Shown here: piece by piece, positions 4,281 through 55,158 of the stretch
How positions within the stretch are numbered: the first letter of the stretch is position 1
Layout: each line of letters opens with the position of its first letter
IMG/VR virus record: IMGVR_UViG_3300021405_000009
Span: 34,240 to 98,239 of that record
Strand: one strand, 5' to 3'
Source: a virus
DNA length: 64,000 nt
Position numbers and translations under genes: made by a program
The notes under the pieces: generated by a model
Told to the model about the DNA's origin: nothing
What the model saw: only the letters and a program-made list of their open reading frames with translations
The model's database searches: none

Positions 4281-4376
4281 TCGCGGACAAGGGATGCGGC
4301 TGGAATTTGCAGGAGTCGAACCTGCGACGCTTTTTGAGCGTTTCATCAGGATAACCAGCTCACTTCGGCCCGCGAA
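4281..4376 (-). ncRNA. Y-RNA-like (Yrl) RNA, remote copy carrying a T-arm
   Basis: Minus strand: TCGCG-GGCCGAA-GTGAGCTG-GTTATC-...-GCAGG TTCGACT CCTGC-...-CCAGCCGC-ATCC-CTTGTC-CGCGA; same scaffold as the 53.6-54.3 kb array. Confidence 0.8.
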
Positions 4377-31604: not shown

Positions 31605-32401
31605 CACAGTCGATACCTCATCTCCCAGTGGCGGCGATACGCGTCGGCAATCACGCGCGAGACGAAGTTGCGATCGATCTCCGGCTGCAGCGGCGAGCTG
31701 GCTTCGGCCGCACGGCAAATCTCCGAGCGCTCGGTCGCATTGCGGATGACCCAATCCTCCGTGTACTCGCCGTTGCGAATAGCGATCAACAGATCTTTCT
31801 GCGGAGAGGGTAGCGTGATGATCCCGCTGCGCATCAGTTCTTCGCACTCGATCAGCAGCCGGATGATGTGCATGGCGAACTTGGTGTCGTAGCCGTACTT
31901 CGCGACCAGGTCGGGCCGATTCACGTTGCGGCTACGCTCGCCCGTCATGCGCATCAACTGCGCGGTCGCGAAGCCCAGGAATTGTTTGTAGTGCTTCCGG
32001 CACAGGAACTGCAGACGATATTTCTCGACGGCATGGAACCAGGTGTCGAACGCACCGGCTGGCACCGGCAGCGCATTCTTCGCGAAGATGGCGTGCAGGA
32101 TGCTGGGGTTCCCCTTGCAGGCCAGGTGCGCCCATTTCTGCAGCCCGTAGAGCGTGATGTCGATGTCGCTGGAATCGTTCTTGCGTTCATTCGTGCTGGT
32201 GGACCAGACGAAGTGTTCATAGCTATCGACGCCGATGATTTTTTCTGGCGGCTCGACGTAGACGCCATAGATGTCGAGATCGTCATAGCCGGAGACTTTC
32301 GCCCCGTGCAGGGCGGAGCCACCCACGAACAGGTGGATGATCTCCGTCCAGTACGGGAACTTCGCTGCCTTCACGTGGTCGAGCAGTGCGCTATCGACCA
32401 T
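31604..32401 (-). CDS. RlaP-like DNA polymerase beta superfamily nucleotidyltransferase
   Basis: GGSALHG...DDLDIYGVY, DITLY, KGNPS, GYDTKFAMHIIRL motifs of the YcgL/RlaP family. Confidence 0.8.
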   Translation of the reverse strand: MVDSALLDHVKAAKFPYWTEIIHLFVGGSALHGAKVSGYDDLDIYGVYVEPPEKIIGVDSYEHFVWSTSTNERKNDSSDIDITLYGLQKWAHLACKGNPSILHAIFAKNALPVPAGAFDTWFHAVEKYRLQFLCRKHYKQFLGFATAQLMRMTGERSRNVNRPDLVAKYGYDTKFAMHIIRLLIECEELMRSGIITLPSPQKDLLIAIRNGEYTEDWVIRNATERSEICRAAEASSPLQPEIDRNFVSRVIADAYRRHWEMRYRL

Positions 32402-41647: not shown

Positions 41648-42403
41648 GTGGAGAACTCGATGCACGAAGCAGGAACCCCCGAACAGATCACCGCACTATA
41701 CGCAGCTCTCAGCCTGGCCCAGGCGGAATTCCCCAAGATCGAAAAGACCAAGAGCGCCTACAACTACAAGTACGCCCCCATGGACGAGATCGAACTCAAG
41801 ATCCGTCCCGTCCTCATCAAGCACGGCCTGGCCGTCTTCCACCCCATCAACCACGTCGGCGAGAGTGGCAAGCAAGCCGTGGGAGCGCTCATCGTCCATG
41901 CGCTGGGCGGCCGGTTCTGGTGCGATGGGCTCATCATCCAGGAAAGCGCCAAGCCGCAGGACCAGGGCGGGCATATCACTTACGGCCGACGCTATGTCTA
42001 TTGCTCCATGCTCGGCATCACCTCGCAGGACGACGACGAGTCAGTCCTTGCGAAAAGCCCTCGTCGCAGCACCGTGACGAGGCGGGACGGCGTAGCTCAA
42101 GATGGTCGAGCGCCGATCGCTGGACGTAGTTCGGTGCCCCCAGCGCCAGTCGGAGATTCCGGTTCGATTCCGGACCCGTCCCTACCCACTAAACAAGAGC
42201 GCATTGAGTATGTCGCGCGCCTGGGCAACTACCGCAAACAGGTCACCGACGATGCGCTGCGGGCATTCCTTCTGCGCGAGTCGGGCGCATCCGAGACGCG
42301 GCTGATCGCGAAGAAAGACTGGCTCAAGCTACTCACGCAACTCGACGACGCCCTGGCGAAGGGCAAGCTTCTGGAGGCCGTCAGTGAAAATTTCAACCGC
42401 TAG
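41648..42403 (+). CDS. ERF-family single-strand annealing protein
   Basis: ALSLAQAEF...YKYAPMDEI...KHGL...PQDQGGHITYGRRYVYCSMLGI..DDDE. Confidence 0.85.
   Translation: MENSMHEAGTPEQITALYAALSLAQAEFPKIEKTKSAYNYKYAPMDEIELKIRPVLIKHGLAVFHPINHVGESGKQAVGALIVHALGGRFWCDGLIIQESAKPQDQGGHITYGRRYVYCSMLGITSQDDDESVLAKSPRRSTVTRRDGVAQDGRAPIAGRSSVPPAPVGDSGSIPDPSLPTKQERIEYVARLGNYRKQVTDDALRAFLLRESGASETRLIAKKDWLKLLTQLDDALAKGKLLEAVSENFNR
42084..42182 (+). other. tRNA-like cloverleaf embedded in-frame in the ERF gene
   Basis: GGGACGG(C)G-TA-GCTC AAGATGGTC GAGC-G-CCGAT[31-nt insert with CGCTGG/CCAGCG stem]GTCGG-AGAT-TCCGG TTCGATT CCGGA-CCCGTCCC. Confidence 0.7.
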
Positions 42404-50700: not shown

Positions 50701-51363
50701 ATGGATTTGAAACGCGGTTTCACTGCAATCGTTCTGTGCATCACCCTGGTCCTCGCAGGCTGCACCACGGCCTGGATCACCGAAGTCGAGAACATCATCA
50801 CGGCCGTCATTCCGGCCGTCGTGAATATCATCACCCTGGTGGGCGAGTTGGATGGCAGCGGAGTTTCAGCCACGGACCTCAACCTGGTCCGGAACGTGGG
50901 CACGCAGGCCACGGGCGATCTGCAGCTTCTGCAGTCCTTGATTGCGCAGTACCAGAAGGCCGACGCCACGGCGCAGCCTGGCCTGTTGCGCGAGATCTCC
51001 ATACTCGCAGTCACCATCCAGACCAACCTTACGGCGCTGCTTCCGGCTTTACATATCAGCGACGCTGCGACCGAGGCCAAAGTTGTGGCAGTGGTCGGCC
51101 TGGTGGTCTCTGAAATCGATTCACTCGTCGCCGTGCTGCCTATCGTCAATACAGGCAACACCGGGGTCATCGGCGGGGATATTCGGCTTCCGGCGTATCA
51201 ACTGAAGTCTCCGCCGCTTTCCGCCAGCGCCTTTGTCAGTAGCTACAACTCCACCATGACAGCGAAGACGGGCAACGCAGCGCTCGACAAGGCCACGTCC
51301 GGCTTGAAGATCCACCTGCATGGCCGGTTCATGCGGTTCGTTACGGTCGGAATTCTGAAGTAG
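50701..51363 (+). CDS. Lipoprotein with amphipathic helices
   Basis: Lipobox LVLAGC after a hydrophobic stretch. Confidence 0.7.
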   Translation: MDLKRGFTAIVLCITLVLAGCTTAWITEVENIITAVIPAVVNIITLVGELDGSGVSATDLNLVRNVGTQATGDLQLLQSLIAQYQKADATAQPGLLREISILAVTIQTNLTALLPALHISDAATEAKVVAVVGLVVSEIDSLVAVLPIVNTGNTGVIGGDIRLPAYQLKSPPLSASAFVSSYNSTMTAKTGNAALDKATSGLKIHLHGRFMRFVTVGILK

Positions 51364-51378
51364 TCCAAGGAGACATAC

Positions 51379-51705
51379 ATGCCAGTCGAGAACGTGAAGC
51401 TCGTAACCGCTGCCAAGAAATTGCTGAAACTGTTCGGCCCCAAGGGCGAGCACTGGACGCTCCGTAGTAACGCGCGTGATGCCAATGGCGACGAAGTCCC
51501 GGTCATGTCGCGCAAGGCTATCCAGTGGTGCCTCAGCGGGGCTACGCAAAAGCTTAACCTGCCGTCGTTAGTGCGGGGTGAACTTCGGCAGGCCGTTCCC
51601 ACGGCATCCTTCGTGGGTTTCAATGATTCACACCGCACCTACACCCATGTGCGCAAGTTCCTTGAAAAGATCGTCAACCGGAAAGAGCTGAAGACTAAGA
51701 GCTAA
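51379..51705 (+). CDS. Small conserved phage protein (DUF6197-like)
   Basis: HWT...ARD..G...WCLSGA...FND. Confidence 0.55.
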   Translation: MPVENVKLVTAAKKLLKLFGPKGEHWTLRSNARDANGDEVPVMSRKAIQWCLSGATQKLNLPSLVRGELRQAVPTASFVGFNDSHRTYTHVRKFLEKIVNRKELKTKS

Positions 51706-51720
51706 GGAGCTGCAACCCCC

Positions 51721-53313
51721 ATGCGATATCTCATTCACCGCGCAGTAGCGATCGGTAACCCGCCCCAGAGTCAGCCGCTGAACGACCGTCAGTCGAAAAA
51801 CAGCGCTGGCGGTTACAGTTTCACTCTGGATAAGTGGGGCAAGCTCGACCGTTTTCTCATCCTAGGCAGCGAAGGTGGCAGTTACTATGCCAGCGAGCAG
51901 AAGCTTACCGAGGAGAATGCCACCAATCTGGCAGCGTGTGTGAAGGAAGATGGCATTAAGGTGGTCAAGCGCATCGTCGAGATCAGCGATGCGGGCCGGG
52001 CTCCGAAGAACGACCCGGCGCTGTTCGCTCTGGCTTACGCCTCGGCGAAGGGCGACGACGACACGCGTAGTGCGGCTCTGGCTGCACTGCCCAAGGTCGC
52101 ACGCATCGGCACGCATCTGTTCCACTTCACCGCCTTCGTCAACACCATGCGAGGCTGGGGCCGTGGACTGCGGAAGGCCGTAGGTAACTGGTATGCCCAA
52201 GCTGGCGAAGAAGATTGGGATCGCCTGGCCGAGCAGGTCACAAAGTACCAACAGCGTGAGGGCTGGAGCCACCGCGATCTACTGCGCCTGGCGCACCCCA
52301 AGCCGACCTGCCGTCCGCACCAGGCAATCGCTAAGTGGGTAGTCAAGGGCGGAGAGTTGAACCAGACCGCGCCCGAGAAGTTGGTGGGCCACGTTGAACT
52401 GCAAGAGGCCACGACGCCGAAGCAGGCCGTGAAGCTCATCACCAAGTACGGGCTCGTGCGCGAGTCCGTGCCCACTGAACTGCTGAAGTCTCCTGAGGTA
52501 TGGGAGGCCCTGCTCGCGCGGATGCCCATGACGGCGATGATTCGCAACCTGGGCAACCTGTCGAAGTGCGGGTTGCTGACTCCATTGAGCGAAGCCTCGA
52601 AGATGGTAGTCGAGCGGCTGAGCGAGGAAGCGCTGCTGAAGAAGGCGCGCGTACATCCGATTCAACTCTTGATCGCGCAAAAGACTTACGGCTCCGGCCA
52701 TGGCAACAAAGGCAAAGGCGAATGGACGCCCGTGCCCCAGGTAGTTGACGCATTAGACGGCGCTTTCTACTCAGCCTTCCAGAACATTATCCCGTCAGGC
52801 AAGCGCTTCTACCTGGGGCTCGATGTGTCGGGCTCGATGTCCTGCGGCGAAGTAGCCGGAGTCAACGACTTCACGCCTCGCGAGGCATCGTCCGCCATGG
52901 CCATGGTCACGGCGCGCAGCGAGCAGAACTACTACGTCGCTGGCTTCCAGGAGCGCATGATCCAGCTCATGATTACGCCGAAGTCGCGGCTCGATCAGAT
53001 CTGCTCTGCTACGGCGAAGCTGCCGTTCGGCTCTACCGATTGCGCCCAGCCCATGCTGGACGCGCTGGCAAAGAAGTTGCCGGTGGACGTGTTCGCGATC
53101 TACACCGACTCCGAGACCTGGAGTGGAACAACGCACCCAACCGTGGCCCTGGAGCGCTACCGCCAGCAGACTGGCATCCCGGCGAAGTTGATTGTCGTCG
53201 GCATGGTGGCCAATCCGTTCACGATCGCCGATCCGAACGATGCTGGCATGTTGGACGTGGTCGGATTCGATTCAGCGACGCCGCAGATCATCTCACAGTT
53301 CGCGGAGGCGTAG
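51721..53313 (+). CDS. rsr: Ro60/Rsr TROVE-domain RNA-binding protein
   Basis: NSAGGY, RFLILGSEGGSYY, GRAPKNDPALFAL, GWGRGLRKAV, KYQQREGWSHRDLLRLAHP, MPMTAMIRNL, RVHP, vWA DVSGSM, TDSETW, DAGMLDVVGFD. Confidence 0.95.
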   Translation: MRYLIHRAVAIGNPPQSQPLNDRQSKNSAGGYSFTLDKWGKLDRFLILGSEGGSYYASEQKLTEENATNLAACVKEDGIKVVKRIVEISDAGRAPKNDPALFALAYASAKGDDDTRSAALAALPKVARIGTHLFHFTAFVNTMRGWGRGLRKAVGNWYAQAGEEDWDRLAEQVTKYQQREGWSHRDLLRLAHPKPTCRPHQAIAKWVVKGGELNQTAPEKLVGHVELQEATTPKQAVKLITKYGLVRESVPTELLKSPEVWEALLARMPMTAMIRNLGNLSKCGLLTPLSEASKMVVERLSEEALLKKARVHPIQLLIAQKTYGSGHGNKGKGEWTPVPQVVDALDGAFYSAFQNIIPSGKRFYLGLDVSGSMSCGEVAGVNDFTPREASSAMAMVTARSEQNYYVAGFQERMIQLMITPKSRLDQICSATAKLPFGSTDCAQPMLDALAKKLPVDVFAIYTDSETWSGTTHPTVALERYRQQTGIPAKLIVVGMVANPFTIADPNDAGMLDVVGFDSATPQIISQFAEA

Positions 53314-53523
53314 ATGCAGGTGCAGATCCCGCAGGTCACGCTCGAAGACACCAAGGGGTTCGCCGAGGCGTGGAATAAGTCGAGGCCCATCGTGGTGATC
53401 TTCGATCCGCACGACCTGGCGTTCGCCCAAGCATTCGCGAACTTCGCAGTGCAACGAGTTTTCGCTGGCCTCATCGCGCAACAGGAAGCAGAAGCGAAGA
53501 GGCTGACGGTTGTGGAACCATAG
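53314..53523 (+). CDS. Small hypothetical protein between Ro60 and the RNA array
   Basis: ATG abuts the Ro60 stop; 69 aa. Confidence 0.55.
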   Translation: MQVQIPQVTLEDTKGFAEAWNKSRPIVVIFDPHDLAFAQAFANFAVQRVFAGLIAQQEAEAKRLTVVEP

Positions 53524-53578
53524 CTCCAGTACGAGAGGAGAACAACTATAGGAATACGCACAGGCTAACACACGCAAC

Positions 53579-53648
53579 TGACGGGCCGATAGCAGATCGT
53601 TATCATATGCTTGAAAAACAATTACGGTCTGCGACAACTTGTCCGTCA
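53579..53648 (+). ncRNA. Y-RNA-like unit A (short)
   Basis: TGACG-GGCCGAT-A-GCAGATC-GTTATC-loop-CGGTCTGC-GACAA-CTTGTC-CGTCA. Confidence 0.75.
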
Positions 53649-53657
53649 CCTACTTAC

Positions 53658-53729
53658 ACCGTTGGGCCGCAGTTGGTTCGTTACCTACATTGATTGGAAT
53701 ATACGGACCGACACATTTTGTCTAACGGT
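53658..53729 (+). ncRNA. Y-RNA-like unit B (short)
   Basis: ACCGTTG-GGCCGCA-GTTGGTTC-GTTACC-loop-CGGACCGAC-ACAT-TTTGTC-TAACGGT. Confidence 0.7.
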
Positions 53730-53737
53730 AAATATAT

Positions 53738-53878
53738 GCGAGGGCCGAAGAGAATTGGTTATCCTCCACCTAAGCCGTACCGGGGGAGTAGCTCAATGGT
53801 AGAGCGCCGGACCTGATCAATCCGGAGGTTGCTGGTTCAAGTCCAGTCTCCATACCGATTCTCGTACCTTGTCTTCGC
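53738..53878 (+). ncRNA. Y-RNA-like unit C enclosing a non-permuted tRNA-like fold
   Basis: GCGAG-GGCCGAA-GAGAATTG-GTTATC...[D arm GCTC/GAGC, anticodon arm CCGGA/TCCGG, T arm GCTGG TTCAAGT CCAGT]...CCGATTCTC-GTAC-CTTGTC-TTCGC. Confidence 0.85.
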
Positions 53879-53887
53879 TTCATTTCT

Positions 53888-53952
53888 GCGAGGGTCGAAG
53901 TCGGTCTGTTATCACAATGCAAACAGAGACGGACCGCGTAACTTATCTTCGC
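53888..53952 (+). ncRNA. Y-RNA-like unit D (short)
   Basis: GCGAG-GGTCGAA-GTCGGTCT-GTTATC-loop-CGGACCGC-GTAA-CTTATC-TTCGC. Confidence 0.8.
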
Positions 53953-53971
53953 TTCATGTTTCACTTGTAAG

Positions 53972-54110
53972 TGCGAGGGCCGAAGCTAGCTGGTTATCTT
54001 GGAACTCTATGTCGTTGGTTCGATTCCAACCGTCCTGGTTCTCCAGGCGTAGTTCAGTGGTAGAACAAGAGTGGCGAAAGCCATTTCCGGCTACATCACT
54101 TGTCTTCGCA
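53972..54110 (+). ncRNA. YrlA-type Y RNA unit E (circularly permuted tRNA mimic)
   Basis: Scaffold plus ACTCT..T arm GTTGG TTCGATT CCAAC, closed acceptor CCTGG-ttct-CCAGG, D arm GTTC AGTGGTA GAAC, AGAGT, and an extra TGGC-GAAA-GCCA hairpin. Confidence 0.9.
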
Positions 54111-54158
54111 TGAAATCCCTGGCCGGGTACTATCTGAGGCATCCGGCCAGTAAAACAG

Positions 54159-54303
54159 AAAGAGAGCGGGCCGAAAGCTGGTTGGTTATCTACTGCTAAT
54201 AGAGAGGTCGCGGGTTCGAGTCCCGCTGGCACCTTCGGGTGCTATAGCTCAGTTGGCTAGAGCGCTAAAACACCGATTGGCATAGAACTTGTCCGCTCTC
54301 TTT
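54159..54303 (+). ncRNA. YrlA-type Y RNA unit F (permuted tRNA mimic retaining an anticodon hairpin)
   Basis: AAAGAGAGCG-GGCCGAA..GTTATC; TCTA CTGCTAA TAGA; T arm GCGGG TTCGAGT CCCGC; acceptor TGGCACC TTCG GGTGCTA; D arm GCTC AGTTGGCTA GAGC; CTTGTC-CGCTCTCTTT followed by a T-tract. Confidence 0.9.
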
Positions 54304-54342
54304 TTATTTTACCTCTAACGGTCAGCGTCAGGTGTTTCTCTT

Positions 54343-55158
54343 ATGCCAACTCTCTGCTTTGTCGGCGACGTGCATGGAAACTTAACGCAGATGTACGCCG
54401 CTCTGATGGCGTGGATGGAGCGTAGTTACACTAAGATCGATGCCGTCGTTCAGGTTGGCGATCTCGGCGTATACCGCCGTGGTACCACCTGGTCTTCCAT
54501 GTTCTTCAAGGGCGTGCCCTCGCCGATCCCGACCTGGGCCTGCATGGGCAACCATGAAGATCCGCTCGCGATCCGCGACTGGCAGAACGAGCCCGACCGA
54601 ATTCCTAACATGCACCTGATGCCGGATGGCGAGATCACCAGCGTTCTCGGCGTCCAGATCGGCGTTGTGTGGGGCAACTACAGCCCGATTAGTTGGCTTG
54701 ATCCTGGCCGTGTACACAAGGCGCGCGCTGTGGGCGGCGAGTCCGCGCGGATCGCTATGCACATCGACCACGCTGCTGTTACCCGCCTGATGGATTTATA
54801 CCAGCGCTGCGGCGATCACATGGATGTGCTAGTCACGCATGACTCTGCGGCGTCCACACTGCCGGTACAGTTTCGCGGCAAGGGCATGGACTCCTTCATC
54901 AAAGGGCAGCTCGGCCTTACTGATAACGAAGAGTCTGGCGGCTGCCACGGCTTCAACTCGCTGCTCAAGGCATTTCAGCCCGATGAATATTTCTTTGGCC
55001 ACCTGCACTGTTATGACGAAGGCATGATTGGCCGCACGCATTACACCTGCCTGAACGCGATCGGCTACGAAGGTGGCCCGTGGTTCAAGGTGATGGAGTT
55101 CCCAGACGTGGCGGGGCCGCTGTCTGGGGGTATCAACATTCTCGGGGGAGGTTCTTAA
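54343..55158 (+). CDS. Calcineurin-like metallophosphoesterase
   Basis: GDVHG, VGDLG, GNHE, THD, GHLH motifs. Confidence 0.9.
   Translation: MPTLCFVGDVHGNLTQMYAALMAWMERSYTKIDAVVQVGDLGVYRRGTTWSSMFFKGVPSPIPTWACMGNHEDPLAIRDWQNEPDRIPNMHLMPDGEITSVLGVQIGVVWGNYSPISWLDPGRVHKARAVGGESARIAMHIDHAAVTRLMDLYQRCGDHMDVLVTHDSAASTLPVQFRGKGMDSFIKGQLGLTDNEESGGCHGFNSLLKAFQPDEYFFGHLHCYDEGMIGRTHYTCLNAIGYEGGPWFKVMEFPDVAGPLSGGINILGGGS

What the first reader, a model, noticed from the sequence alone, without database searches (positions are those of the whole stretch)
51721..55158. Phage Ro60 with a tandem array of six modular Y-RNA-like genes and a metallophosphoesterase: a candidate multi-RNA RNP system
Seen: after the TROVE/Ro60 gene are six closely spaced units (53579-648, 53658-729, 53738-878, 53888-952, 53972-54110, 54159-303). 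Each has the architecture outer stem / GG(C/T)CG(A/C)(A/T) / inner stem / GTTA(T/C)C / variable cargo / inner stem' / 4-6 nt / (C/T)TT(G/A)TC / outer stem'. Stem sequences differ but stay paired (TGACG:CGTCA, ACCGTTG:TAACGGT, GCGAG:TTCGC, GAGAGCG:CGCTCTC), which is covariation within one genome. A phosphoesterase starts 40 nt after the last unit. Known: bacterial Ro60 (Rsr) binds Y RNAs through a GNCGAA-containing helix, and YrlA RNAs are tRNA mimics encoded next to rsr, usually as one or a few copies, including in some phages. Inference: one constant Ro60 handle displays a panel of interchangeable cargoes (three short loops, one linear tRNA fold, two differently permuted tRNA mimics). These could act as decoys or tethers against host tRNA-targeting defences, with the phosphoesterase healing 2',3'-cyclic-phosphate ends. 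I cannot confirm novelty without searches.
Basis: partly seen in the sequence, partly recalled or inferred. Interest (0 to 1): 0.95.

Follow-up and report, generated by a model that had tools for sequence, protein, structure and literature searches.

The report
Phage Ro60 gene with seven Y RNAs
This phage carries a gene for the ring-shaped RNA-binding protein Ro60, followed by six small "Y RNA" genes in a row and a seventh elsewhere; all seven share one protein-binding handle but carry different inserts, a larger version of a known protein-RNA pairing that is common in phages and bacteria but barely described in print.

Summary
Ro60 (51721-53313) is a canonical TROVE+vWA protein. All six units lie at the stated coordinates. 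A seventh sits at 4281-4375 on the minus strand, and the 98-kb record holds exactly seven.

A covariance model of the shared handle finds 120 more units beside Ro60 in 36 of 42 related viral contigs, 209 in 80 bacterial loci and 13 in five cultured phages. All of these are on the Ro60 strand. Arrays reach 10 units, and covariation is strong (91% paired against 61% shuffled).

The units are genuine Y RNAs:
- A, B and D are minimal.
- E and F are YrlA-type tRNA mimics, both with the same permutation.
- G carries a T arm only.
- C is a rarer tRNA mimic in D-anticodon-T order with a sealed acceptor hairpin.

The metallophosphoesterase is not a conserved partner: it is absent from all 42 Ro60 loci, and its own homologues lack Ro60. 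It is Dbr1-like, not a 2',3'-end-healing enzyme. The decoy idea has no support.

This is a new variant (a large, mixed-cargo array) of a known kind. This scan has already noted similar arrays on other DNA many times. I found no published catalogue of them.

The parts
51721..53313 (+). Ro60/Rsr gene (530 aa; TROVE ring plus vWA domain with MIDAS motif DVSGS)
   Evidence: Pfam TROVE 1.4e-43 and vWA_Ro60 3.8e-63; PHROG 850 RNA-binding protein 6e-83; translation
53314..53523 (+). 69-aa ORF overlapping the Ro60 stop codon (TAGATG); no family, not conserved beside Ro60 elsewhere; may or may not be a real gene
   Evidence: ORF list; no Pfam or PHROG match; no tblastn match in 42 Ro60 loci
53579..53648 (+). 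Y RNA unit A: minimal, handle plus a 23-nt A/U-rich loop
   Evidence: Fold z -3.85; R2 61.8 bits; best Rfam match is nematode sbRNA family RF01656, 23 bits, E 0.0076, aligned on UUAUC and AACUUG-CCGU
53658..53729 (+). Y RNA unit B: minimal, 7-bp variable outer stem ACCGTTG/TAACGGT
   Evidence: Fold z -3.62; R2 58.1 bits
53738..53878 (+). Y RNA unit C: handle plus a tRNA mimic in the order closed acceptor hairpin (UCCUCC-ACCU...GGGGGA), D arm, anticodon-like arm with a 9-nt loop, T arm. ARAGORN calls it tRNA-Ile(gat)
   Evidence: ARAGORN; Rfam tRNA 46.9 bits covering model positions 4-67 only; R2 49.8 bits; same architecture with compensatory changes in L005:2356-2492 and L028:2538-2673
53888..53952 (+). 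Y RNA unit D: minimal; shares the outer stem GCGAG/TTCGC with C and E but has a different inner stem
   Evidence: Fold z -3.58; R2 56.9 bits
53972..54110 (+). Y RNA unit E: YrlA-type tRNA mimic (T arm, closed acceptor-like hairpin, D arm) plus an extra GAAA-loop hairpin
   Evidence: Rfam YrlA RF02553 35.4 bits, E 7.8e-6, below the gathering score of 69; R2 39.9 bits
54119..54150 (+). 10-bp hairpin in the 48-nt spacer between E and F; no U tract follows; role unknown
   Evidence: Fold -19.8 kcal/mol, z -2.7
54159..54303 (+). Y RNA unit F: YrlA-type tRNA mimic with a 7-bp acceptor-like stem closed by UUCG. Its long closing helix is followed by TTTTTATTTT, a likely operon terminator
   Evidence: Rfam YrlA 41.2 bits, E 1.6e-7; R2 48.3 bits; sequence
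4281..4375 (-). Y RNA unit G: the same handle with a small hairpin and a T arm only; 47 kb from Ro60, on the other strand, in a divergent intergenic region
   Evidence: Regex scan and sequence; R2 42.9 bits; fold z -2.9
54343..55158 (+). Dbr1-like metallophosphoesterase. It is adjacent to the array but is not a conserved partner of the Ro60/Y RNA module
   Evidence: Pfam Metallophos; family profile against PDB gives Dbr1 5.6e-24; AF2 model pLDDT 93 with Dbr1 as top fold match, E 2e-15; no synteny with Ro60

Best explanation
This is a phage copy of the Ro60 (Rsr)/Y RNA ribonucleoprotein system with an enlarged RNA set.

Shown:
- The protein is a canonical Ro60.
- Seven RNA genes share a two-helix handle: 5' variable stem, GGGC, CGAAG, inner stem, GGUUAYC, cargo, inner stem', 4-6 nt, CUUGUC, variable stem'.
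- The handle carries the known Ro60-binding motif GNCGAA.
- The stems covary within and between genomes.
- The handle occurs beside Ro60, on its strand, in phages and bacteria.

Inferred:
- The six adjacent units are transcribed together with Ro60 and terminate at the U tract after unit F. They are cut apart in the short A/U-rich spacers, as happens for the polycistronic Y RNAs of Mycobacterium, Deinococcus and Salmonella.
- Each unit binds the outer surface of the Ro60 ring through the handle.
- The cargo is the effector end. tRNA-elbow mimics (C, E, F, and G in part) and simple loops (A, B, D) recruit or gate different host partners. PNPase is the documented one, and tRNA-recognising enzymes are further candidates. 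A single phage Ro60 would thereby be put to several uses in host or phage RNA turnover, or in counter-defence.

The confidence given applies to the identity (a Ro60 gene with a set of Ro60-binding Y RNAs). The multi-partner step on its own I put at about 0.45.
For: Ro60 identity.

Unit anatomy and folds.

Handle model R2:
- All 7 window units score E <= 1.2e-5, and there are no other hits in the 98-kb record.
- It finds 120 further units in 36 of 42 IMG/VR Ro60 loci, all on the Ro60 strand and mostly within 1-2 kb.
- It finds 209 in 80 bacterial Ro60 loci, all on the Ro60 strand.
- It finds 13 in five cultured actinophages.

Covariation on 122 distinct units: 91.4% of cells paired against 60.6% in shuffles and 35-42% when slid; 15 of 17 pairs show compensatory changes.

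Conservation within a locus: motifs stay 0.80-0.90 identical while stems are only 0.37-0.42 identical, and the 3' motif has locus-specific variants. This fits selection by a cognate protein rather than recent copying.

Rfam: YrlA matches on E and F; an sbRNA (metazoan Y RNA homologue) match on A through UUAUC and CUUG.

Literature:
- GNCGAA is the proposed Rsr-binding motif; Y RNAs are encoded near rsr on the same strand and processed from polycistronic precursors; M. smegmatis YrlB carries a T arm only (PMC4201824).
- Thermus phage phiLo Ro60 binds two phage Y-like RNAs and host PNPase (PMC12135203).
- A UUAUC loop motif is conserved in vertebrate Y RNAs and sbRNAs (PMC4726728).
Against: - There are no expression, processing or binding data for this phage.
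- No sigma-70-like promoter or classical terminator was called in the array, so the transcription unit is inferred.
- E and F score below Rfam's gathering threshold for YrlA (35-41 bits against 69).
- Unit G is far from Ro60 and on the other strand, unlike every unit in the relatives.
- The partners of any cargo are unknown. For Deinococcus Yrn1, deleting the T arm did not change PNPase complex assembly (PMC4201824).
- The alignments used for the covariation counts were fitted to the model's structure, which inflates pairing somewhat.
Confidence: 0.8

Rival explanations
1. Ro60, the RNA array and the metallophosphoesterase form one three-part system. The tRNA-like cargoes act as decoys or tethers against host tRNA-cleaving defences, and the phosphoesterase heals 2',3'-cyclic-phosphate ends.
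For: - The phosphoesterase starts 39 nt after the last unit, on the same strand.
- In cells, Ro60 sits in RNA-repair operons (rsr-yrlBA-rtcBA). TROVE proteins in jumbo phages have been grouped with RNA repair (PMC7824862).
- The phage also encodes an RlaP-like RNA-repair nucleotidyltransferase elsewhere.
- A Ro60-like protein of phage Bas63 counters the Ppl defence system (PMC11482910).
Against: - No homologue of the phosphoesterase lies within 4 kb of Ro60 in any of 42 viral loci.
- None of six viral loci encoding its homologues has Ro60 or a handle nearby.
- No recurrent Pfam family appears among 114 Ro60 neighbours; Metallophos is not in the top 25.
- The enzyme is Dbr1-like, not lambda-Pase/CthPnkp-like. 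Downstream genes are nucleotide-metabolism genes.
- The record has no RtcB.
- YrlA-type cargoes have no anticodon loop to offer as bait. The anticodon-like arm of C-type units is not conserved in loop size.
Confidence: 0.07
2. The cargoes have no distinct targets. The tRNA-like folds and tight hairpins only stabilise Ro60-bound RNAs against host exonucleases. The array then simply provides dosage or redundancy of one function, gating the Ro60 cavity.
For: - Chen et al. 2014 offer nuclease protection as one explanation for the tRNA module (PMC4201824).
- Three of the seven units carry only short loops.
- Array size varies from 1 to 10 between related loci, as expected for a dosage trait.
Against: - Most arrays keep a mixture of cargo classes, typically one or more YrlA-type units plus several minimal ones, rather than copies of one unit.
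- Units within a locus are old, with stem identity about 0.4, yet are retained.
Confidence: 0.2
3. Unit C is a working tRNA gene, tRNA-Ile(GAU) as ARAGORN calls it. It either happens to lie in the array or is delivered from a Y-like precursor.
For: - ARAGORN calls a tRNA, and Rfam tRNA scores 46.9 bits, above its threshold of 29.
- D and T arms are canonical.
- In 10 of 42 relatives, Ro60/Y arrays sit inside tRNA gene clusters.
Against: - The Rfam match covers model positions 4-67 only.
- The 5'/3' acceptor pairing is 4 bp plus mismatches.
- The anticodon loop has 9 nt, with C where a purine (position 37) is expected.
- The 5' acceptor strand instead pairs with an upstream strand. That hairpin covaries in L005 and L028.
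- The whole element is enclosed by a full Y handle (R2 49.8 bits).
Confidence: 0.04
4. The units are not Ro60 ligands at all. They are repeated structured elements, such as transcript punctuation or stability elements or decayed tRNA genes, that merely co-occur with Ro60.
For: There are no binding data. Unit G sits far from Ro60.
Against: - 342 of 342 units in other genomes lie on the Ro60 strand beside the gene, across phages and several bacterial phyla.
- The handle carries the published Rsr-binding motif.
- The protein neighbours are otherwise unrelated, so Ro60 is the only constant partner.
Confidence: 0.03

Closest known systems
Bacterial and mycobacteriophage Rsr (Ro60) with YrlA/YrlB Y RNAs (Rfam RF02553; Chen et al. 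2014, PMC4201824)
   Same: - TROVE+vWA protein.
- RNAs encoded beside it on the same strand.
- GNCGAA(N)G motif near the 5' end.
- A closing stem formed by the two ends.
- YUAY at the start of the variable region.
- tRNA-like module in T / acceptor-like hairpin / D order (units E, F).
- A second, smaller Y RNA that may carry only a T arm (unit G; M. smegmatis YrlB).
- Polycistronic organisation.
   Different: - Seven RNAs, against the two documented per species; the paper reports 355 YrlA hits in 276 genomes.
- Three minimal units with no tRNA feature.
- One unit with a different tRNA topology.
- Both strands of the Ro-binding helix are recognisable, whereas in Salmonella and M. smegmatis only the 5' strand is.
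- E and F fall below the Rfam gathering score.
- No rtcBA genes.
Deinococcus radiodurans Rsr with Yrn1/Yrn2 and the RYPER complex (Ro60-Y RNA-PNPase)
   Same: - Several small RNAs encoded next to rsr, co-transcribed with a tRNA.
- A Ro-binding helix with both strands conserved, as in metazoan Y RNAs.
- Yrn1 has its tRNA-like arms in D-like, anticodon-like, T order, as unit C does.
   Different: - Yrn1 has no closed acceptor hairpin and only a partial D arm.
- Whether this phage's RNAs bind PNPase is unknown.
Thermus phage phiLo Ro60 with Yrl1 and Yrl2 (PMC12135203; PDB 9KOP, 9L5Y)
   Same: A phage-encoded Ro60 with adjacent phage-encoded Y-like RNAs that carry the CGAA motif. This is experimental precedent that a phage Ro60 binds its own RNAs and can engage host PNPase.
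   Different: Two RNAs upstream of the gene, against six downstream plus one remote. No tRNA-like module is reported for Yrl1 or Yrl2.
Metazoan Y RNAs and nematode stem-bulge RNAs (Rfam RF00019, RF01656)
   Same: Lower stem with the Ro60 site, an internal loop, an upper stem, then a UUAUC motif opening the loop domain and CUUG(A/U)C on the 3' strand. Unit A's only Rfam match is an sbRNA family, through these motifs. UUAUC conservation is documented in PMC4726728.
   Different: The match is weak (23 bits against a threshold of 38). There is no Pol III or La context. The tRNA-like cargoes are absent from metazoan Y RNAs. Whether the shared motifs mean homology or convergence is unresolved.
Circularly permuted tRNA genes (for example in Cyanidioschyzon merolae; recalled from memory, not checked here)
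   Same: In unit C and its two viral relatives, the strand equivalent to the acceptor 3' strand plus A-CC(A/U) lies upstream of the acceptor 5' strand, D, anticodon-like and T arms.
   Different: Here the two ends are held by a Y RNA handle, not a bulge-helix-bulge splice site. The break lies at the T/acceptor junction. The anticodon arm is degenerate.

Membership tests
Ro60/Rsr (TROVE) protein | TROVE (HEAT-repeat ring) domain | tested here: met
   Pfam PF05731, 1.4e-43, residues 26-321
Ro60/Rsr (TROVE) protein | C-terminal vWA domain with MIDAS motif DxSxS | tested here: met
   Pfam PF25045 vWA_Ro60, 3.8e-63; LGLDVSGSM in the translation
Ro60/Rsr (TROVE) protein | Binds Y RNA on the outer ring surface and single-stranded RNA in the central hole | not testable with these tools
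   Needs pull-down, EMSA or a structure
Bacterial/phage Y RNA (YrlA/YrlB class) | Encoded within about 4 kb of the Ro60 gene on the same strand | tested here: met
   Units A-F lie 266-990 nt downstream of the Ro60 stop on the + strand. Unit G does not meet this: 47 kb away, minus strand.
Bacterial/phage Y RNA (YrlA/YrlB class) | GNCGAA(N0-1)G motif near the 5' end | tested here: met
   C, E and G have GGCCGAAG; D has GGTCGAAG; F has GGCCGAAAG. A (GGCCGATAG) and B (GGCCGCAG) are one-base variants.
Bacterial/phage Y RNA (YrlA/YrlB class) | [quoted passage not shown] | tested here: met
   Outer helix 96% paired, with 7 of 8 pairs showing compensatory change across 122 units
Bacterial/phage Y RNA (YrlA/YrlB class) | Bound and stabilised by Ro60 in vivo | not testable with these tools
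   No expression or binding data
YrlA (Rfam RF02553) | Score at or above Rfam's gathering threshold (69 bits) | tested here: not met
   F 41.2, E 35.4 and C 17.7 bits; A, B and D give no match. E and F have YrlA architecture but are divergent from the Rfam seed.
YrlA (Rfam RF02553) | tRNA-like module in the order T arm, acceptor-like stem-loop, D arm | tested here: met
   The alignments of E and F to the model show all three arms. This is not so for A, B, C, D or G.
tRNA (unit C) | Cloverleaf with a 7-bp acceptor stem formed by the 5' and 3' ends and a 7-nt anticodon loop | tested here: not met
   The Rfam match covers positions 4-67 only. Acceptor is 4 bp plus mismatches; loop is 9 nt. The alternative closed acceptor hairpin is supported in relatives.
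Dbr1-type metallophosphoesterase (gene 54343-55158) | Metallophosphoesterase core closest to Dbr1 in both sequence and fold | tested here: met
   Profile against PDB: Dbr1 5.6e-24, next CWF19L1 1.6e-5, no other family. Foldseek: Dbr1 E 2e-15, TM 0.74.
Dbr1-type metallophosphoesterase (gene 54343-55158) | Dbr1-specific Cys in motif I and the Dbr1 C-terminal domain | tested here: not met
   Motif I is an invariant GDxHG. The protein is 271 aa with no Pfam DBR1 C-terminal domain. It is therefore Dbr1-like, not a proven debranching enzyme.

The most novel reading that the evidence does not exclude
The array is an adaptor set that lets one phage Ro60 ring be aimed at several host machines.

Unit C represents an undescribed class: a tRNA circularly permuted at the T/acceptor junction and mounted on a Y handle. 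The loop closing its acceptor hairpin begins with discriminator A plus CC(A/U). RNase P cleavage and 3' trimming or CCA repair, as documented for M. smegmatis YrlA, would open that loop. The result would be a Ro60-tethered, two-piece tRNA with a free acceptor end.

In this phage that end reads G1-C72, G2-C71, G3.U70, G4-C69, A73. I recall this as the alanine/tmRNA identity set, so it could be charged.
Probability: 0.07. Interest if true: 0.85.

Novelty: new variant of a known kind. Interest (0 to 1): 0.55.

Why it matters
What the tRNA-like and other effector modules of bacterial Y RNAs do has been open since 2014.

This locus and its relatives show that one Ro60 commonly comes with many Y RNAs. 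They share a strictly conserved handle and carry a few recurring cargo classes: minimal loop, T arm only, YrlA-type, and a second tRNA permutation.

That gives three things:
- A ready-made comparative and experimental panel: the same protein and the same handle with different cargo.
- A covariance model that finds the short Y RNAs that homology searches have missed.
- Evidence that tRNA callers and ORF callers mis-annotate these genes in deposited phage genomes.

It also shows that the UUAUC box of metazoan Y RNAs is the most conserved element of the phage and bacterial handle. This bears on whether the animal and prokaryotic RNAs are related.

Tried and rejected
- **Sigma-70 promoter and terminator scan of 51300-54500:** nothing convincing, so the transcription unit stays inferred.
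- **Rfam at gathering thresholds:** sees only a 'tRNA' in unit C.
- **Metazoan Y_RNA family:** did not appear even at E<=10.
- **Pfam on nine ORFs around unit G:** no matches.
- **Model R3 for C-type units:** it mostly re-found ordinary tRNAs and other handle units. Only the three training sequences scored high (120-154 bits). Partial relatives are L019:3797, L057:4566 and L096:5834.
- **My own D-arm regex:** too strict. I used T-arm position to assign topology instead.
- **The look-up of encoding contigs:** I tested the phosphoesterase's contexts through the search for related loci instead.
- **The 2020 Annual Review on bacterial Ro60/Y RNAs (PMC10870794):** not held, so I could not check what it says about the number of Y RNAs.
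- **Rejected: the G3.U70/A73 acceptor of unit C as a conserved feature.** It is absent from L005 and L028.
- **Rejected: the phosphoesterase as an RNA end-healing enzyme of the CthPnkp/lambda type**.

Full report
**What is there.** The window is the right-hand 64 kb of a 98-kb IMG/VR virus record.

- The ORF at 51721-53313 is a canonical Ro60: Pfam TROVE 1.4e-43 and vWA_Ro60 3.8e-63, PHROG 850, MIDAS motif DVSGS.
- A 69-aa ORF of no known family overlaps its stop codon.
Spacers are 8-19 nt and A/U-rich. The exception is a 48-nt spacer with a 10-bp hairpin before unit F.
- Every unit folds as outer stem / asymmetric internal loop / inner stem / cargo, with z-scores of -2.3 to -3.9 against shuffles.
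- Unit F's closing helix is 13 bp and runs into TTTTTATTTT. This is the only terminator-like feature; the consensus scan found no promoter or terminator.

**A seventh unit, and chance.** A regex for the complete signature finds only these six places in the window plus one more. That one is at 4281-4375 on the minus strand, in a divergent intergenic region. It has the same handle, a small hairpin and a T arm. With covariance model R2, all seven score 39.9-61.8 bits, and nothing else in the 98-kb record scores at E<0.1.

**Evidence from other genomes.**

| Source | Loci searched | Handle units found |
|---|---|---|
| IMG/VR viral contigs, Ro60 41-64% identical | 42 (36 with hits) | 120 |
| Bacterial (mostly metagenome-assembled) genomes, Ro60 51-57% identical | 80 | 209 |
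| Cultured actinophages (BearBQ, Farewell, ET08, Sixama, FuzzBuster) | 5 | 13 (2-3 each) |

- I built a handle model from A, B and D and rebuilt it from 34 hits.
- Every one of these units is on the Ro60 strand, usually within 1-2 kb of the gene.
- Viral arrays hold 1-10 units: L005 has ten, L019 and L022 have six, and five others have five. Bacterial arrays reach about ten (L070).
- In the cultured phages the units are unannotated or lie under a 'hypothetical protein' CDS.
- On 122 distinct units, 91.4% of cells pair, against 60.6% in shuffles and 35-42% when the partner is slid. Fifteen of 17 pairs show compensatory changes. The alignment was fitted to the model, which flatters these numbers, but the margin is large.
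- Within a locus the stems are almost as different as between loci (identity 0.37-0.42 against 0.32). The motifs stay 0.80-0.90 identical, and the 3' motif has locus-specific variants. This is what selection by a cognate protein predicts and what recent duplication does not.
- The most conserved element of all is GGUUAYC (U 100%, U 99%, A 96%, C 99%).

**What the units are.** The handle carries the GNCGAA(N)G motif proposed as the Rsr-binding site. It also carries the YUAY that opens the variable region of YrlA RNAs (PMC4201824).

- **E and F:** Rfam's YrlA model matches both over its full length, at 35.4 and 41.2 bits. That is below the gathering score of 69. Both have T arm, closed acceptor-like hairpin and D arm in that order, so they share one permutation.
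- **A, B and D:** minimal Y RNAs. A's only Rfam match is a nematode stem-bulge RNA family, through UUAUC and AACUUG-CCGU. sbRNAs are Y RNA homologues, and UUAUC is conserved in them and in vertebrate Y RNAs (PMC4726728).
- **G:** resembles M. smegmatis YrlB, which also carries a T arm.
- **C:** ARAGORN calls it tRNA-Ile(gat) and Rfam calls it tRNA. However, the match lacks the acceptor ends, the anticodon loop has 9 nt, and the 5'/3' acceptor pairing is only 4 bp.

**Unit C in detail.**
- Two distant viral loci (L005:2356-2492 and L028:2538-2673) have the same architecture. The strand before the D arm pairs with a strand directly after GGUUA, giving a 6-bp closed hairpin with compensatory changes.
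- The loop of that hairpin begins A-CCA in both relatives and A-CCU here. It is followed by a D arm, a short anticodon-like arm and a T arm.
- Topologically this is a tRNA permuted at the T/acceptor junction. Its D, anticodon-like, T order is the one described for Deinococcus Yrn1.
- It is rare: 3 of 47 viral or phage loci, plus one or two partial bacterial examples.
- Most long units elsewhere have the YrlA order, with the T arm at nt 39-53.

**How it most likely works.**

Shown: a canonical Ro60 gene, and a family of structured RNAs whose only constant neighbour is that gene.

Inferred from established Ro60 biology:
- The RNAs are cut from a polycistronic transcript, as in Mycobacterium, Deinococcus and Salmonella.
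- They bind Ro60 through the handle.
- They use the cargo to gate the ring or to tether it to partners. PNPase is the documented partner, including for a phage Ro60 (PMC12135203).
- The feature common to the tRNA-like cargoes is the T/D 'elbow', not the anticodon. Elbow-recognising proteins are therefore the obvious candidates.
- A counter-defence role is possible, because a Ro60-like protein of phage Bas63 counters Ppl (PMC11482910). Nothing here tests it.

**The phosphoesterase.**
- It is adjacent and co-oriented, but the link is not conserved. tblastn finds no homologue within 4 kb of Ro60 in any of 42 viral loci.
- Six viral loci encoding its homologues have no Ro60 and no handle.
- Pfam profiling of 114 Ro60 neighbours shows no recurrent family; the best is YqaJ with 4 members, and RlaP has 2.
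- A profile of 30 homologues matches only Dbr1 lariat-debranching enzymes in the PDB (5.6e-24) and CWF19L1.
- A confident model (pLDDT 93) has Dbr1 as its top fold match (E 2e-15; generic phosphoesterases follow at about 1e-7).
- It keeps Asp, not Dbr1's Cys, in motif I and lacks the Dbr1 C-terminal domain.
- The known RNA-end-healing phosphoesterase is the CthPnkp/lambda-phosphatase type (PMC3675462), and it was not matched.
- The genes downstream are nucleotide-metabolism genes. The record has an RlaP-like gene 20 kb away and no RtcB.

**Novelty.**
- Phage Ro60 genes with one or two Y RNAs are published (PMC4201824; PMC12135203).
- Full-text searches found no description of arrays of five to ten Y RNAs, of the minimal units as a family, or of the C-type topology. 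The main 2020 review was not available to me.
- This scan has noted Ro60-linked RNA arrays on other DNA many times: 809 notes in at least 665 genomes. Units A, B, D and G of this genome were noted separately.
- I therefore class the locus as a new variant of a known kind. It sits in the upper part of, but not at the top of, the array-size range of its relatives.

Noticed in passing
window 54343-55158 (+): The metallophosphoesterase is specifically Dbr1-like. Profile against PDB: Dbr1 5.6e-24, then CWF19L1. Fold search: Dbr1 E 2e-15. It has GDxHG in motif I and no Dbr1 C-terminal domain. About 45 homologues, many on long (phage-sized) contigs, form a small family of unknown substrate. A 2'-5' phosphodiesterase acting on retron msDNA branches or 2'-5'-linked signalling nucleotides is an untested idea.
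   Followed up: partly
window 42084-42183 (+): ARAGORN calls a 100-nt 'tRNA-Ser(gga)' here. It has a 7-bp acceptor, D arm and T arm, but the anticodon region is replaced by a stem-loop of about 40 nt. It has no Y handle (no R2 hit).
   Followed up: partly
window 31775-32350 (-): An RlaP-family (RNA-repair-associated) nucleotidyltransferase, Pfam PF10127, 7.4e-22. RlaP also occurs next to Ro60 in 2 of 114 profiled neighbours. The record has no RtcB.
   Followed up: partly
L046 (Mycobacterium phage ET08, NC_013650) 2560-2905; also L044, L045, L047, L048: Deposited genomes of cultured actinophages hold 2-3 handle units beside the Ro-like gene, and none is annotated. In ET08 one unit (2836-2905) lies inside the annotated CDS gp219 (2758-2931), which is therefore probably not a protein gene.
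   Followed up: partly
L002, L003, L004, L005, L012, L017, L024, L028, L034, L042: In 10 of 42 related viral contigs the Ro60/Y RNA module sits inside or beside a cluster of 5-21 tRNA genes. L003 and L029 also have a tmRNA. This window has no such cluster.
   Followed up: no
L028 and L038 (all units): Two viral loci use a handle variant, GAGCCCCAG, that lacks the CGAA of the published Rsr-binding motif. It keeps GGUUAYC and the paired helix. This may be a Ro60 lineage with altered RNA specificity.
   Followed up: no
window 54119-54150 (+): A 10-bp hairpin (CUGGCCGG...CCGGCCAG) lies in the only long spacer of the array, between units E and F. No U tract follows it. It could be a processing or stability element.
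   Followed up: no
window 53762-53788 (+): Read as a closed acceptor hairpin, unit C has G1-C72, G2-C71, G3.U70, G4-C69 and A73 followed by CCU. I recall this as the alanine/tmRNA acceptor identity set. The two C-type relatives do not share it, so it may be coincidence.
   Followed up: partly
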